Source: Eledone cirrhosa
Taxonomy: Eukaryota
Reading direction: 5' to 3'
Assembly (NCBI GenBank): GCA_964016885.1
Contig: OZ024748.1
Span: 11,656,001 to 11,720,000 of the forward strand
DNA length: 64,000 nucleotides
Below are positions 42,103-50,985 of the stretch, piece by piece. Made by a program: the position numbers and the translations under genes. Each line of letters opens with the position of its first letter. Position 1 is the stretch's first letter. Under the pieces are notes generated by a model that was not told the DNA's origin, searched no databases, and saw nothing but the letters and a program-made list of their open reading frames with translations.

Positions 42103-45100
42103 ATTGGAATAAATGCTCTGAAATAGCGATATATATGTGAATATAGACATAGAATATTCGAAAATATTCTGTATGTTTATAATAAACATTTTGAAGACCT
42201 AATCGCTATAGAATAGAATACGTCACGTATTACAATTAGATTCTCGATAAAAGCAAGGGAAGTAAGTCTACGCGTTTCATTCTCGTTAGAAATCGTCAGG
42301 ACTACATATCCAGTGCTTCTATCGAGAATGACACAGCTAGAGACTTATAGAATACTTAGCTGTGTACAGGAACTGGTTTGAAAGAGCGGTTGCCGGTCCG
42401 GCAGAAATTAGAAATTGGAATAAATGCTCTGAAATAGCGATATATATGTGAATATAGACATAGAATATTCGAAAATATTCTGTATGTTTATAATAAACAT
42501 TTTGAAGACCTAATCGCTATAGAATAGAATACGTCACGTATTACAATTAGATTCTCGATAAAAGCAAGGGAAGTAAGTCTACGCGTTTCATTCTCGTTAG
42601 AAATCGTCAGGACTACATATCCAGTGCTTCTATCGAGAATGACACAGCTAGAGACTTATAGAATACTTAGCTGTGTACAGGAACTGGTTTGAAAGAGCGG
42701 TTGCCGGTCCGGCAGAAATTAGAAATTGGAATAAATGCTCTGAAATAGCGATATATATGTGAATATAGACATAGAATATTCGAAAATATTCTGTATGTTT
42801 ATAATAAACATTTTGAAGACCTAATCGCTATAGAATAGAATACGTCACGTATTACAATTAGATTCTCGATAAAAGCAAGGGAAGTAAGTCTACGCGTTTC
42901 ATTCTCGTTAGAAATCGTCAGGACTACATATCCAGTGCTTCTATCGAGAATGACACAGCTAGAGACTTATAGAATACTTAGCTGTGTACAGGAACTGGTT
43001 TGAAAGAGCGGTTGCCGGTCCGGCAGAAATTAGAAATTGGAATAAATGCTCTGAAATAGCGATATATATGTGAATATAGACATAGAATATTCGAAAATAT
43101 TCTGTATGTTTATAATAAACATTTTGAAGACCTAATCGCTATAGAATAGAATACGTCACGTATTACAATTAGATTCTCGATAAAAGCAAGGGAAGTAAGT
43201 CTACGCGTTTCATTCTCGTTAGAAATCGTCAGGACTACATATCCAGTGCTTCTATCGAGAATGACACAGCTAGAGACTTATAGAATACTTAGCTGTGTAC
43301 AGGAACTGGTTTGAAAGAGCGGTTGCCGGTCCGGCAGAAATTAGAAATTGGAATAAATGCTCTGAAATAGCGATATATATGTGAATATAGACATAGAATA
43401 TTCGAAAATATTCTGTATGTTTATAATAAACATTTTGAAGACCTAATCGCTATAGAATAGAATACGTCACGTATTACAATTAGATTCTCGATAAAAGCAA
43501 GGGAAGTAAGTCTACGCGTTTCATTCTCGTTAGAAATCGTCAGGACTACATATCCAGTGCTTCTATCGAGAATGACACAGCTAGAGACTTATAGAATACT
43601 TAGCTGTGTACAGGAACTGGTTTGAAAGAGCGGTTGCCGGTCCGGCAGAAATTAGAAATTGGAATAAATGCTCTGAAATAGCGATATATATGTGAATATA
43701 GACATAGAATATTCGAAAATATTCTGTATGTTTATAATAAACATTTTGAAGACCTAATCGCTATAGAATAGAATACGTCACGTATTACAATTAGATTCTC
43801 GATAAAAGCAAGGGAAGTAAGTCTACGCGTTTCATTCTCGTTAGAAATCGTCAGGACTACATATCCAGTGCTTCTATCGAGAATGACACAGCTAGAGACT
43901 TATAGAATACTTAGCTGTGTACAGGAACTGGTTTGAAAGAGCGGTTGCCGGTCCGGCAGAAATTAGAAATTGGAATAAATGCTCTGAAATAGCGATATAT
44001 ATGTGAATATAGACATAGAATATTCGAAAATATTCTGTATGTTTATAATAAACATTTTGAAGACCTAATCGCTATAGAATAGAATACGTCACGTATTACA
44101 ATTAGATTCTCGATAAAAGCAAGGGAAGTAAGTCTACGCGTTTCATTCTCGTTAGAAATCGTCAGGACTACATATCCAGTGCTTCTATCGAGAATGACAC
44201 AGCTAGAGACTTATAGAATACTTAGCTGTGTACAGGAACTGGTTTGAAAGAGCGGTTGCCGGTCCGGCAGAAATTAGAAATTGGAATAAATGCTCTGAAA
44301 TAGCGATATATATGTGAATATAGACATAGAATATTCGAAAATATTCTGTATGTTTATAATAAACATTTTGAAGACCTAATCGCTATAGAATAGAATACGT
44401 CACGTATTACAATTAGATTCTCGATAAAAGCAAGGGAAGTAAGTCTACGCGTTTCATTCTCGTTAGAAATCGTCAGGACTACATATCCAGTGCTTCTATC
44501 GAGAATGACACAGCTAGAGACTTATAGAATACTTAGCTGTGTACAGGAACTGGTTTGAAAGAGCGGTTGCCGGTCCGGCAGAAATTAGAAATTGGAATAA
44601 ATGCTCTGAAATAGCGATATATATGTGAATATAGACATAGAATATTCGAAAATATTCTGTATGTTTATAATAAACATTTTGAAGACCTAATCGCTATAGA
44701 ATAGAATACGTCACGTATTACAATTAGATTCTCGATAAAAGCAAGGGAAGTAAGTCTACGCGTTTCATTCTCGTTAGAAATCGTCAGGACTACATATCCA
44801 GTGCTTCTATCGAGAATGACACAGCTAGAGACTTATAGAATACTTAGCTGTGTACAGGAACTGGTTTGAAAGAGCGGTTGCCGGTCCGGCAGAAATTAGA
44901 AATTGGAATAAATGCTCTGAAATAGTGATATATATGTGAATATAGACATAGAATATTCGAAAATATTCTGTATGTTTATAATAAACATTTTGAAGACCTA
45001 ATCGCTATAGAATAGAATACGTCACGTATTACAATTAGATTCTCGATAAAAGCAAGGGAAGTAAGTCTACGCGTTTCATTCTCGTTAGAAATCGTCAGGA

Positions 45101-45555
45101 CTACATATCCAGTGCTTCTATCGAGAATGACACAGCTAGAGACTTATAGAATACTTAGCTGTGTACAGGAACTGGTTTGAAAGAGCGGTTGCCGGTCCGG
45201 CAGAAATTAGAAATTGGAATAAATGCTCTGAAATAGCGATATATATGTGAATATAGACATAGAATATTCGAAAATATTCTGTATGTTTATAATAAACATT
45301 TTGAAGACCTAATCGCTATAGAATAGAATACGTCACGTATTACAATTAGATTCTCGATAAAAGCAAGGGAAGTAAGTCTACGCGTTTCATTCTCGTTAGA
45401 AATCGTCAGGACTACATATCCAGTGCTTCTATCGAGAATGACACAGCTAGAGACTTATAGAATACTTAGCTGTGTACAGGAACTGGTTTGAAAGAGCGGT
45501 TGCCGGTCCGGCAGAAATTAGAAATTGGAATAAATGCTCTGAAATAGCGATATAT
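42103..45555 (-). repeat. 311-bp hammerhead-ribozyme (retrozyme-like) tandem array, left arm: 11 full monomers plus ~32 bp
   Basis: ATTGGAATAAATGCTC recurs at 42103, 42414, 42725 ... 45213, 45524 (period 311). Monomers look identical by eye except C>T at 44926. The left end abuts (TA)n. Confidence 0.97.
42262..42305 (-). ncRNA. Minimal type I hammerhead ribozyme (first of 11 minus-strand copies in the left arm)
   Basis: Reverse complement of gtaagtctacgcgtttcattctcgttagaaatcgtcaggactac, identical to the motif at 45842-45885. Confidence 0.9.
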
Positions 45556-48500: not shown

Positions 48501-50985
48501 ATATATCGCTATTTCAGAGCATTTATTCCAATTTCTAATTTCTGCCGGACCGGCAACCGCTCTTTCAAACCAGTTCCTGTACACAGCTAAGTATTCTATA
48601 AGTCTCTAGCTGTGTCATTCTCGATAGAAGCACTGGATATGTAGTCCTGACGATTTCTAACGAGAATGAAACGCGTAGACTTACTTCCCTTGCTTTTATC
48701 GAGAATCTAATTGTAATACGTGACGTATTCTATTCTATAGCGATTAGGTCTTCAAAATGTTTATTATAAACATACAGAATATTTTCGAATATTCTATGTC
48801 TATATTCACATATATATCGCTATTTCAGAGCATTTATTCCAATTTCTAATTTCTGCCGGACCGGCAACCGCTCTTTCAAACCAGTTCCTGTACACAGCTA
48901 AGTATTCTATAAGTCTCTAGCTGTGTCATTCTCGATAGAAGCACTGGATATGTAGTCCTGACGATTTCTAACGAGAATGAAACGCGTAGACTTACTTCCC
49001 TTGCTTTTATCGAGAATCTAATTGTAATACGTGACGTATTCTATTCTATAGCGATTAGGTCTTCAAAATGTTTATTATAAACATACAGAATATTTTCGAA
49101 TATTCTATGTCTATATTCACATATATATCGCTATTTCAGAGCATTTATTCCAATTTCTAATTTCTGCCGGACCGGCAACCGCTCTTTCAAACCAGTTCCT
49201 GTACACAGCTAAGTATTCTATAAGTCTCTAGCTGTGTCATTCTCGATAGAAGCACTGGATATGTAGTCCTGACGATTTCTAACGAGAATGAAACGCGTAG
49301 ACTTACTTCCCTTGCTTTTATCGAGAATCTAATTGTAATACGTGACGTATTCTATTCTATAGCGATTAGGTCTTCAAAATGTTTATTATAAACATACAGA
49401 ATATTTTCGAATATTCTATGTCTATATTCACATATATATCGCTATTTCAGAGCATTTATTCCAATTTCTAATTTCTGCCGGACCGGCAACCGCTCTTTCA
49501 AACCAGTTCCTGTACACAGCTAAGTATTCTATAAGTCTCTAGCTGTGTCATTCTCGATAGAAGCACTGGATATGTAGTCCTGACGATTTCTAACGAGAAT
49601 GAAACGCGTAGACTTACTTCCCTTGCTTTTATCGAGAATCTAATTGTAATACGTGACGTATTCTATTCTATAGCGATTAGGTCTTCAAAATGTTTATTAT
49701 AAACATACAGAATATTTTCGAATATTCTATGTCTATATTCACATATATATCGCTATTTCAGAGCATTTATTCCAATTTCTAATTTCTGCCGGACCGGCAA
49801 CCGCTCTTTCAAACCAGTTCCTGTACACAGCTAAGTATTCTATAAGTCTCTAGCTGTGTCATTCTCGATAGAAGCACTGGATATGTAGTCCTGACGATTT
49901 CTAACGAGAATGAAACGCGTAGACTTACTTCCCTTGCTTTTATCGAGAATCTAATTGTAATACGTGACGTATTCTATTCTATAGCGATTAGGTCTTCAAA
50001 ATGTTTATTATAAACATACAGAATATTTTCGAATATTCTATGTCTATATTCACATATATATCGCTATTTCAGAGCATTTATTCCAATTTCTAATTTCTGC
50101 CGGACCGGCAACCGCTCTTTCAAACCAGTTCCTGTACACAGCTAAGTATTCTATAAGTCTCTAGCTGTGTCATTCTCGATAGAAGCACTGGATATGTAGT
50201 CCTGACGATTTCTAACGAGAATGAAACGCGTAGACTTACTTCCCTTGCTTTTATCGAGAATCTAATTGTAATACGTGACGTATTCTATTCTATAGCGATT
50301 AGGTCTTCAAAATGTTTATTATAAACATACAGAATATTTTCGAATATTCTATGTCTATATTCACATATATATCGCTATTTCAGAGCATTTATTCCAATTT
50401 CTAATTTCTGCCGGACCGGCAACCGCTCTTTCAAACCAGTTCCTGTACACAGCTAAGTATTCTATAAGTCTCTAGCTGTGTCATTCTCGATAGAAGCACT
50501 GGATATGTAGTCCTGACGATTTCTAACGAGAATGAAACGCGTAGACTTACTTCCCTTGCTTTTATCGAGAATCTAATTGTAATACGTGACGTATTCTATT
50601 CTATAGCGATTAGGTCTTCAAAATGTTTATTATAAACATACAGAATATTTTCGAATATTCTATGTCTATATTCACATATATATCGCTATTTCAGAGCATT
50701 TATTCCAATTTCTAATTTCTGCCGGACCGGCAACCGCTCTTTCAAACCAGTTCCTGTACACAGCTAAGTATTCTATAAGTCTCTAGCTGTGTCATTCTCG
50801 ATAGAAGCACTGGATATGTAGTCCTGACGATTTCTAACGAGAATGAAACGCGTAGACTTACTTCCCTTGCTTTTATCGAGAATCTAATTGTAATACGTGA
50901 CGTATTCTATTCTATAGCGATTAGGTCTTCAAAATGTTTATTATAAACATACAGAATATTTTCGAATATTCTATGTCTATATTCA
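45558..50985 (+). repeat. 311-bp hammerhead-ribozyme tandem array, right arm (reverse complement of the left arm): 17 full monomers plus ~141 bp
   Basis: GAAACGCGTAGAC recurs at 45558, 45869 ... 50845 (period 311). The only variants seen are G>T at 45792 and 47658. The right end runs into (TA)n. Confidence 0.97.
45842..45885 (+). ncRNA. Minimal type I hammerhead ribozyme (first of 17 complete + strand copies, one every 311 bp)
   Basis: gtagtc-CTGACGA-t ttct aacg agaa t-GAAAC gc GTA^gacttac. Stem I agtc/gact, core CUGANGA, stem II ttct/agaa, GAAA, palindromic stem III ACGCGT, GUA cleavage triplet (predicted cut after 45878). Confidence 0.9.

What the first reader, a model, noticed from the sequence alone, without database searches (positions are those of the whole stretch)
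42103..50985. 8.9-kb head-to-head palindrome of 311-bp hammerhead-ribozyme monomers: a retrozyme-like array inserted in (TA)n
Seen: 11 monomers point left and ~17.5 point right, the period is exactly 311 bp, and I found only three substitutions by eye. There is no ORF, and (TA)n lies on both flanks. Each monomer contains a complete type I hammerhead (CUGACGA...GAAAC-GC-GUA). Established: metazoan non-LTR retrozymes and the newt and schistosome ribozyme satellites are short tandem hammerhead repeats whose multimeric transcripts self-cleave to monomers; retrozyme monomers can circularise and are thought to be mobilised by Penelope-like RTs. Inference: this is a very recent retrozyme insertion, unusual in copy number and in forming a giant inverted pair rather than a simple tandem.
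Basis: partly seen in the sequence, partly recalled or inferred. Interest (0 to 1): 0.95.

Follow-up and report, generated by a model that had tools for sequence, protein, structure and literature searches.

The report
Palindromic ribozyme-repeat insertions, Penelope-type ends
This is one of well over a thousand recent insertions of a small self-cutting RNA repeat, most of them back-to-back palindromes whose ends suggest that a Penelope-like retrotransposon enzyme copied one circular RNA onto both ends of a DNA break, which makes an open question about how such elements move directly testable.

Summary
In detail: 11.1 + 17.5 copies of a 311-bp type I hammerhead unit, joined 5'-to-5' in (TA)n. 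It is no oddity or artefact. The genome holds 16,234 copies of the ribozyme at roughly 1,300–1,600 loci, and 63 of 78 loci examined are such palindromes. In 61 of 63, one arm ends at monomer nt ~128–140 and the other at ~161–171. That offset matches the 30–40-nt 'tail' of Penelope-like elements (PLEs), and autonomous PLEs here end the same way. Both arms share the locus haplotype (39 of 40). Inner ends ignore the cleavage site. Changes fixed across a locus keep plus-strand pairing (8/10 against 3/30). Best reading: a non-LTR retrozyme whose circular monomer is copied rolling-circle onto both ends of a cut (TA)n by a PLE enzyme using two start sites. Cleavage, transcripts and the specific partner PLE are not shown, and Rfam has no hammerhead hit. 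Retrozymes and PLE inverted ends are each known; my eight literature searches did not find them combined. The scan noted similar ends on a ribozyme-free repeat in another genome.

The parts
41986..42102 (.). Left (TA)n target tract
42103..45555 (-). Left arm, 11.1 monomers; outer (RNA 3') end at monomer nt 166 (tail-type end), inner end at nt 135
42103..42137 (-). 35-nt 'tail' (monomer nt 132-166), present at this end only; inferred second RT start site
   Evidence: tail concept from PMC8557442 and PMC11167929
45556..45557 (.). Centre joint, 2 extra bases between the two 5' ends
45558..50985 (+). Right arm, 17.45 monomers; inner end at nt 302, outer end at nt 131 (short-type end, at an internal AU-alternating stretch able to pair with the TA target)
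45842..45885 (+). First complete type I hammerhead of the right arm; predicted cleavage after 45878
45879..46189 (+). One monomer, cleavage site to cleavage site; rod-like fold
   Evidence: the next, identical monomer 46190-46500 folds at z -4.3
45938..46044 (+). Monomer nt 60-166: hairpin and both end sites; nt 60-155 shared at about 80% with an older sister family; inferred RT-recognition module
45792..47658 (+). Same G>T at both ends, six monomers apart; possible duplication of six units after insertion
50986..51192 (.). Right (TA)n target tract

Best explanation
A young non-autonomous non-LTR retrozyme that parasitises an endonuclease-bearing Penelope-like element (PLE). (1) Arrays are transcribed, and multimeric RNA cuts itself through double hammerheads into 310/311-nt monomers that are ligated to circles (inferred; shown for other animal retrozymes). 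(2) A PLE protein, probably a dimer, cuts (TA)n on both strands (inferred). (3) Each DNA 3' end primes reverse transcription on the same circle, one at nt ~131-140 and the other ~35 nt downstream at ~166 (the end positions are shown; priming is inferred). (4) Both run round the circle for a variable number of turns. (5) The two cDNA ends join by microhomology or short templated fillers, giving a 5'-to-5' palindrome; extension of only one end gives a single arm. (6) Some long arms grow later by segmental duplication.
For: Architecture: 63 of 78 loci are divergent palindromes, including 17 of the first 19 found by monomer search and 10 of 20 picked because no partner end was listed. Ends: 61 of 63 pair one short with one tail end, and the two exceptions are an assembly gap and a clipped arm. 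On C1, 43 of 59 tail ends have a divergent short end within 20 kb and 0 of 59 have a tail partner (chance about 0.5%). 55 of 62 palindromes have TA on both sides. Of 18 long-ORF RT/GIY-YIG loci examined, 5 show one short and one longer end in (TA)n, and a sixth (L150) shows a short end on one arm while the other runs on. In vitro, a PLE protein cuts and extends both strands, starts at two internal RNA sites that bound the tail, and is modelled as a dimer (PMC11167929). One template: 39 of 40 loci with full units in both arms have no arm-specific fixed change, whereas two random loci match with P=0.12 (17 haplotypes in 36 loci). Circle: 138 inner ends are spread over the monomer (Rayleigh p~0.14; 3 within 5 nt of the cleavage site against 4.4 expected), and only 2 of 512 units differ within 3 nt of the cleavage joint. 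RNA-level filter on the plus strand: locus-fixed changes keep pairing in 8 of 10 cases, sporadic ones in 3 of 30 (Fisher p=8e-5), and read on the antisense strand only 2 of 10. The free core position N7 takes three states, and 288U>A turns the U.U at the base of stem II into a pair. Joints: 28 of 47 direct joins share >=2 nt (18% expected, p=3e-10).
Against: No cleavage, transcript or circle is shown for this sequence. Rfam does not recognise the ribozyme, and the unconstrained fold of the hammerhead region forms stems I and II but not III. Only 1 of 9 predicted frog retrozyme dimers cut in vitro (10.64898/2026.07.22.740005). No PLE ORF was found attached to a homologue of the monomer among 48 GIY-YIG loci or 30 sister-family loci, so the partner is unidentified. 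7 of 63 joints have near-equal inner phases (3.0 expected, p=0.03), and one insertion occurs in the centre-proximal unit of both arms of L045. Both fit some fold-back or conversion between arms. Shared haplotype cannot tell one circle from two sister RNAs cut from one transcript. The absence of fixed changes from the 11 invariant core bases is weak alone (about 0.7 expected).
Confidence: 0.62

Rival explanations
1. Same element and PLE partner, but the templates are linear, uncleaved multimeric transcripts of a homogeneous source array (one or two molecules), and circles play no part in integration.
For: In vitro, hammerhead cleavage was not needed and unprocessed RNA was the main substrate of a PLE protein (PMC11167929). 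The weak stem III would leave multimers. A multimer also gives clean joints and scattered 5' ends.
Against: New variants are fixed in every unit of both arms at once, many at single loci. That needs a one-monomer bottleneck at some step. Old mosaic arrays exist (L061+62), yet most loci are uniform.
Confidence: 0.2
2. One arm is made by target-primed reverse transcription and the other is a fold-back (self-primed) copy of it, possibly from an antisense template, as proposed for head-to-head PLE structures.
For: PMC3846280 proposes self-priming on an antisense template. It explains shared haplotypes. Near-equal inner phases at 7 of 63 joints, the insertion in both arms of L045, and near-perfect centres in sister-family loci L159 and L160 fit it.
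Against: Either arm can be the longer (tail arm in 33, short-end arm in 28 of 61; by more than one copy in 28 and 21), and a copy cannot exceed its template. 53 of 63 joints have inner phases more than 20 nt apart. Structure-keeping changes favour the hammerhead (plus) strand.
Confidence: 0.12
3. A DNA-level satellite: a short PLE terminal-repeat insertion that expanded locally by unequal exchange, with gene conversion homogenising the arms.
For: Recurrent variants in the longest arms (this locus, L051, L053, L061+62) show segmental duplication after insertion. 10.64898/2026.07.22.740005 favours local amplification of PLE termini.
Against: Loci carry about 3e-4 changes per base, little time for conversion. 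Variants present in all units differ sharply from sporadic ones in keeping RNA pairs, which DNA exchange would not produce.
Confidence: 0.04
4. Assembly or library artefact (fold-back reads, collapsed or inflated repeat).
For: Arm lengths at this locus were not checked with spanning reads; the six-unit repeat of one variant could be mis-assembly.
Against: The flanks are not mirrored. The two outer ends differ by a fixed ~35 nt at 61 loci, and the inner joints are locus-specific. Short-read contigs of run X1 show TA loose ends at monomer nt 140 and 171 (X1 may be the source sample).
Confidence: 0.02

Closest known systems
Metazoan non-LTR retrozymes (PMC7229834; bioRxiv 10.64898/2026.07.22.740005)
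   Same: Non-coding, low-GC tandem units of 150-450 bp with one type I hammerhead each, up to dozens of copies, and self-paired fold. Palindromic weak helix III and a U.U at the base of helix II occur in the two axolotl ribozymes. Circular template and PLE mobilisation are proposed there.
   Different: Described as tandem repeats. 'Inverted', 'palindrom' and 'head-to-head' do not occur for arrays in either main text (supplements not seen). Here most loci are 5'-to-5' palindromes with fixed paired ends in (TA)n.
Endonuclease-bearing Penelope-like elements, Neptune/Nematis type (PMC8557442, PMC3846280, PMC11167929)
   Same: Inverted 5'-truncated copy, 30-40-bp tail at one end, microsatellite targets, hammerhead upstream of the RT start sites.
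   Different: No ORF. Both arms are long concatemers of one small unit rather than a full element with a short inverted terminal repeat.
Non-autonomous Chlamys PLEs such as MRC1 (PMC8557442, passage)
   Same: Non-autonomous PLE passengers that often form multicopy insertions.
   Different: Described as head-to-tail and as resembling autonomous families at the 3' end; no such homologous partner was found here.
L1 twin priming (recalled, no call)
   Same: Two target ends primed on one RNA give an inverted 5' segment joined by microhomology.
   Different: Here both start sites are fixed, internal and 35 nt apart, there is no poly(A), and both products are multi-unit.

Membership tests
Non-LTR retrozyme | Tandem non-coding unit of about 150-450 bp, GC under 50%, no LTR | tested here: met
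   311 bp, GC about 0.35, longest frame 59 aa
Non-LTR retrozyme | A type I hammerhead in every unit | tested here: met
   Core and three stems by motif and pairing; 16,234 genome copies. Rfam did not score it
Non-LTR retrozyme | Dispersed multi-locus family | tested here: met
Non-LTR retrozyme | Self-cleavage in vitro | not testable with these tools
   Palindromic helix III can pair in trans at -7.5 kcal/mol; prediction only
Non-LTR retrozyme | Expressed as linear and circular monomer RNA | tested here: inconclusive
   No direct test was possible; only indirect sequence signs of an RNA template
Non-LTR retrozyme | Target-site duplication | tested here: inconclusive
   Hidden by (TA)n; 6 of 62 loci give weak candidates
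PLE-mobilised insertion | Inverted 5'-truncated arm | tested here: met
   63 of 78 loci
PLE-mobilised insertion | 30-40-nt tail at one end | tested here: met
   61 of 63 palindromes
PLE-mobilised insertion | Microsatellite target | tested here: met
   55 of 62
PLE-mobilised insertion | Co-resident PLE with long open frames | tested here: met
   RT + GIY-YIG frames of 844-1096 aa with a CxxxxCxxC linker; many copies 95-97% alike. Clade assigned by motif only, no tree
PLE-mobilised insertion | Sequence homology to the terminal repeat of an autonomous partner | tested here: inconclusive
   None in 48 GIY-YIG loci out of 10,596 first-look candidates; only a short likeness at the tail end of L141
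Autonomous PLE | Encodes RT and endonuclease | tested here: not met
   No ORF

The most novel reading that the evidence does not exclude
Beyond the double-ended rolling-circle mechanism, the 310-nt circle behaves as a viroid-like RNA lineage of its own: it evolves at the RNA level (structure selection, possibly A-to-I editing hard-copied into DNA) and passes between host species. Single circular 310-nt contigs differing by 2-4 substitutions and one deleted base lie at depth 7 and 34 in two runs labelled as other organisms. Trace cross-contamination from a 16,000-copy repeat explains this more simply, since their alleles match haplotypes seen in this genome.
Probability: 0.06. Interest if true: 0.95.

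Novelty: new variant of a known kind. Interest (0 to 1): 0.74.

Why it matters
Two open points meet here. How animal retrozymes enter the genome has been argued from co-occurrence and terminal-repeat phylogeny; this family carries the PLE integration footprint itself at more than a thousand young loci. The origin of PLE tandem/inverted structures is called undefined in PMC8557442 and was ascribed to self-priming in PMC3846280. Here locus-private variants act as natural barcodes. They indicate that each insertion uses each RT start site once and draws both arms from one RNA lineage, on the hammerhead strand. That gives sharp predictions for an existing in vitro assay with a 310-nt substrate. 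The family also loads the genome with about 5 Mb of near-perfect multi-kilobase palindromes and shows satellite arrays being born from single insertions.

Tried and rejected
Rfam: nothing at gathering score in the window; three chance-level non-hammerhead hits at E<=10. Expression: no RNA holder listed, which is no evidence either way. One search listed 20 holders in 16 studies under 17 organism codes, and I laid only 3 of those holders plus one added run. That run (X24, raw Hi-C reads) gave 0 reads, which the tool marks as no test. Partner PLE: BLAST of 48 GIY-YIG loci, a profile of the shared module, local alignment of PLE ends and tblastn of 30 sister-family loci found no ORF joined to the monomer's sequence; L110's match is a separate sister-family insertion. 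ORFs beside single-arm loci were simple repeats or unrelated RT pieces. Empty allele: the right flank had no second copy in the assembly. Target-site duplications could not be resolved. A hexameric circular template for this locus was rejected because the G>T of units 1 and 7 is missing from unit 13. The constrained fold returned an infeasible energy, so the pairing test was redone with an explicit pair table. L046 and L078 (assembly gaps, many indels) were left out of the mutation counts; searches also dropped loci with fewer than 3 full units, leaving 48. The host was not determined: the PLE protein's nearest named relatives are bivalve proteins at up to 65% identity. Paper searches with octopus or cephalopod terms gave 0 papers and 3 listings, not followed up. 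The dimer-cleavage paper PMC5785218 was not held, and the supplement of PMC7229834, with its mobilisation model, could not be read.
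Full report
Observation. The left arm lies on the minus strand at 42103-45555 (11.10 copies) and the right arm on the plus strand at 45558-50985 (17.45 copies). Two extra bases lie between them, the period is 311, there are three substitutions, and no frame is longer than 59 aa. Each side abuts 37 nt of pure TA, and the flanks are not mirror images. 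I number the monomer from the base after the predicted cleavage site (nt 1 = 45879).

The ribozyme. Rfam does not score it. By motif it is a complete type I hammerhead: a 6-bp stem I with one bulge, CUGACGA, a 4-bp stem II closed by U.U, GAAA, and a palindromic 2-bp stem III. This fits the description of canonical animal type I hammerheads that work as dimers and are thought to stay uncut in monomeric circles (PMC4209133, passages). Axolotl retrozyme ribozymes show the palindromic helix III and the U.U (PMC7229834). The hammerhead region folds at z -4.9 and the monomer at z -4.3. The unconstrained fold lacks stem III, and the palindrome can pair in trans at -7.5 kcal/mol. Activity is predicted, not shown.

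The family. The window is G000:C8:11656001-11720000 of a 3.0-Gb genome. A degenerate pattern finds 16,234 copies of this hammerhead, of which 227 match the window's variant exactly; most loci carry a 310-nt form. End patterns give 655 and 715 forward-strand hits, so about 1,300-1,400 loci, or about 1,600 from copy number at a mean of 10.4 copies. I analysed 78 loci: 19 from monomer searches, 39 chosen because both ends were listed, and 20 chosen because the partner end was not listed. 63 are divergent palindromes, 12 are single arms and 3 are complex. In the two sets not chosen for pairing, the counts are 17 of 19 and 10 of 20. The inversion is therefore the rule. This locus is large but not the largest (28.6 copies, maximum 48; 2 of 43 paired spans on C1 reach 8.8 kb).

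Outer ends. They fall in two classes: nt 126-140, at an internal AU-alternating stretch, and nt 161-171. In 61 of 63 palindromes one arm has each; the exceptions are an assembly gap and a clipped arm. On C1, 43 of 59 tail ends have a divergent short end within 20 kb and none has a tail partner. Of 10 unpaired tail ends fetched, 8 were palindromes with variant short ends, 1 was single and 1 hit a gap; of 10 unpaired short ends, 8 were single arms. An inverted 5'-truncated copy, a 30-40-bp tail at one end and (TA)n targets are the described marks of PLE insertions (PMC8557442, 12 passages). A purified PLE protein cuts and extends both target strands, starts at two internal RNA sites that bound the tail, and is modelled as a dimer (PMC11167929, main text). 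That paper does not discuss inverted insertions, circles or retrozymes. [quoted passage not shown] Of 18 long-ORF loci, 5 show one short and one longer end in (TA)n (38-nt tails in L141, L151 and L153; about 63 nt in the L144/L152 family). L150 shows a short end on one arm while the other runs on. The rest had no inverted arm or were uninformative.

The template. Each locus has its own haplotype: 17 among 36 C1 loci, with two random loci matching at P=0.12. Of 40 loci with full units in both arms, 39 have no arm-specific fixed change, and the exception is a one-unit arm. By strict majority unit 33 of 40 agree, and the 7 others differ through sporadic changes in arms of one or two units. Both arms thus come from one RNA molecule or from sister molecules of one source. 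The 138 inner ends are spread over the monomer (Rayleigh p about 0.14), with 3 near the cleavage site against 4.4 expected. Only 2 of 512 units differ near that joint. Linear self-cleaved monomers joined by template jumps would predict the opposite. In 48 loci, changes fixed across a locus keep base pairs in 8 of 10 cases and sporadic changes in 3 of 30 (p=8e-5); on the antisense strand only 2 of 10 would be kept. The hammerhead strand is therefore the RNA that passed the filter. Six of 17 fixed substitutions are A>G against 4 of 45 sporadic (p=0.02), five of them after U. This may be selection for G.U pairs or A-to-I editing (ADAR preference recalled, not tested).

The centre. Of 63 joints, 47 are direct and 28 of these share 2 or more bases (18% expected, p=3e-10). 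The other 16 hold fillers; the nine printed match the monomer over 6-15 nt, and one is 272 nt of unrelated sequence. Either arm can be the longer (33 against 28), which a simple fold-back copy cannot give. Against this, 7 of 63 joints have near-equal phases (p=0.03), and one insertion occurs in the centre-proximal unit of both arms of L045. Fold-back or conversion probably contributes at a minority of loci, as proposed in PMC3846280 (10 passages).

Later growth. The longest arms carry recurring sporadic variants; L061+62 repeats a ten-unit block. The G>T shared by units 1 and 7 here suggests a six-unit duplication, which would leave arms of about 11 and 11.5 copies. Mis-assembly is not excluded.

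Mechanism, with status. Shown: anatomy, paired ends, shared haplotypes, scattered inner ends, plus-strand structural bias, and co-resident PLEs with the same ends. Inferred: transcription, dimeric cleavage, circularisation, double-strand cut in (TA)n, two primings on one circle, rolling-circle synthesis with strand displacement, and end joining. Not found: the specific partner. An older sister family shares nt 60-155 at about 80% and has similar ends (1,280 tail-end hits), which marks this stretch as the likely recognition module.

Other data. Contigs of run X1 show the same common alleles and TA loose ends at nt 140 and 171, but X1 may be the source sample. Runs X5 and X7, labelled as other organisms, each hold one circular 310-nt contig at depth 7 and 34. 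I read these as probable trace contamination and keep horizontal spread as the low-probability novel case.

Comparison and novelty. It meets the sequence criteria of non-LTR retrozymes and works like a PLE passenger; cleavage and circular RNA remain untested. PMC7229834 (parts 2-4 of 6 read, supplement unreadable) proposes circular templates and names PLEs as candidates. bioRxiv 10.64898/2026.07.22.740005 (parts 1-3 of 5 read, supplements not seen) argues from co-occurrence and terminal-repeat trees. Neither main text mentions inverted arrays or tails, nor do the passages seen in two reviews and a centromere atlas. Eight searches turned up no report of palindromic retrozyme arrays. Subscription journals, repeat databases and the unseen supplements could hold one. 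An earlier scan note on another genome describes similar ends on a ribozyme-free repeat (not tested here). Verdict: a new variant of a known kind, real, and mechanistically informative; interest 0.74.

Noticed in passing
window 32594-32825: Small 5'-to-5' pair of a different hammerhead element in (TA)n, short end on the left and a longer end on the right: the same architecture in miniature.
   Followed up: partly
window 41714-41985: Another hammerhead-bearing fragment (core at 41786, minus strand) right beside the array; the same ribozyme family occurs in L141, L144, L148 and L151.
   Followed up: partly
window 51195-51392: Near-perfect short palindrome of a hammerhead 3' half ending in (TA)n; a related element lies in L148.
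   Followed up: no
window 12337-12455: 3' module of the older sister family, about 80% like monomer nt 85-154.
   Followed up: partly
window 33583, 52505, 59833, 60333: Further hammerhead-like motifs from a descriptor scan.
   Followed up: no
L054:1499-1770: 272-nt GC-richer unrelated filler at a palindrome centre, possibly a captured cellular RNA.
   Followed up: no
L049:418-5151: Four-part - + - + insertion with the same microhomology at two joints.
   Followed up: no
L061-L062 (G000:C1:97461100-97476900): 45-copy arm that is a mosaic of recurring variants: a satellite array growing from one insertion.
   Followed up: partly
L150 and L144: Autonomous PLE insertions whose two arms both carry RT/endonuclease frames 5'-to-5'; the L150 arms are 99.7% identical.
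   Followed up: partly
L031 (G000:C3:178239367-178240729): Single-arm locus with the same rare haplotype as the window's array: a possible parent, daughter or sibling.
   Followed up: no
L100 and L103: Single arms of 0.9 copy running from the short end round to nt 164-168, as if the first polymerase stopped at the second start site.
   Followed up: no
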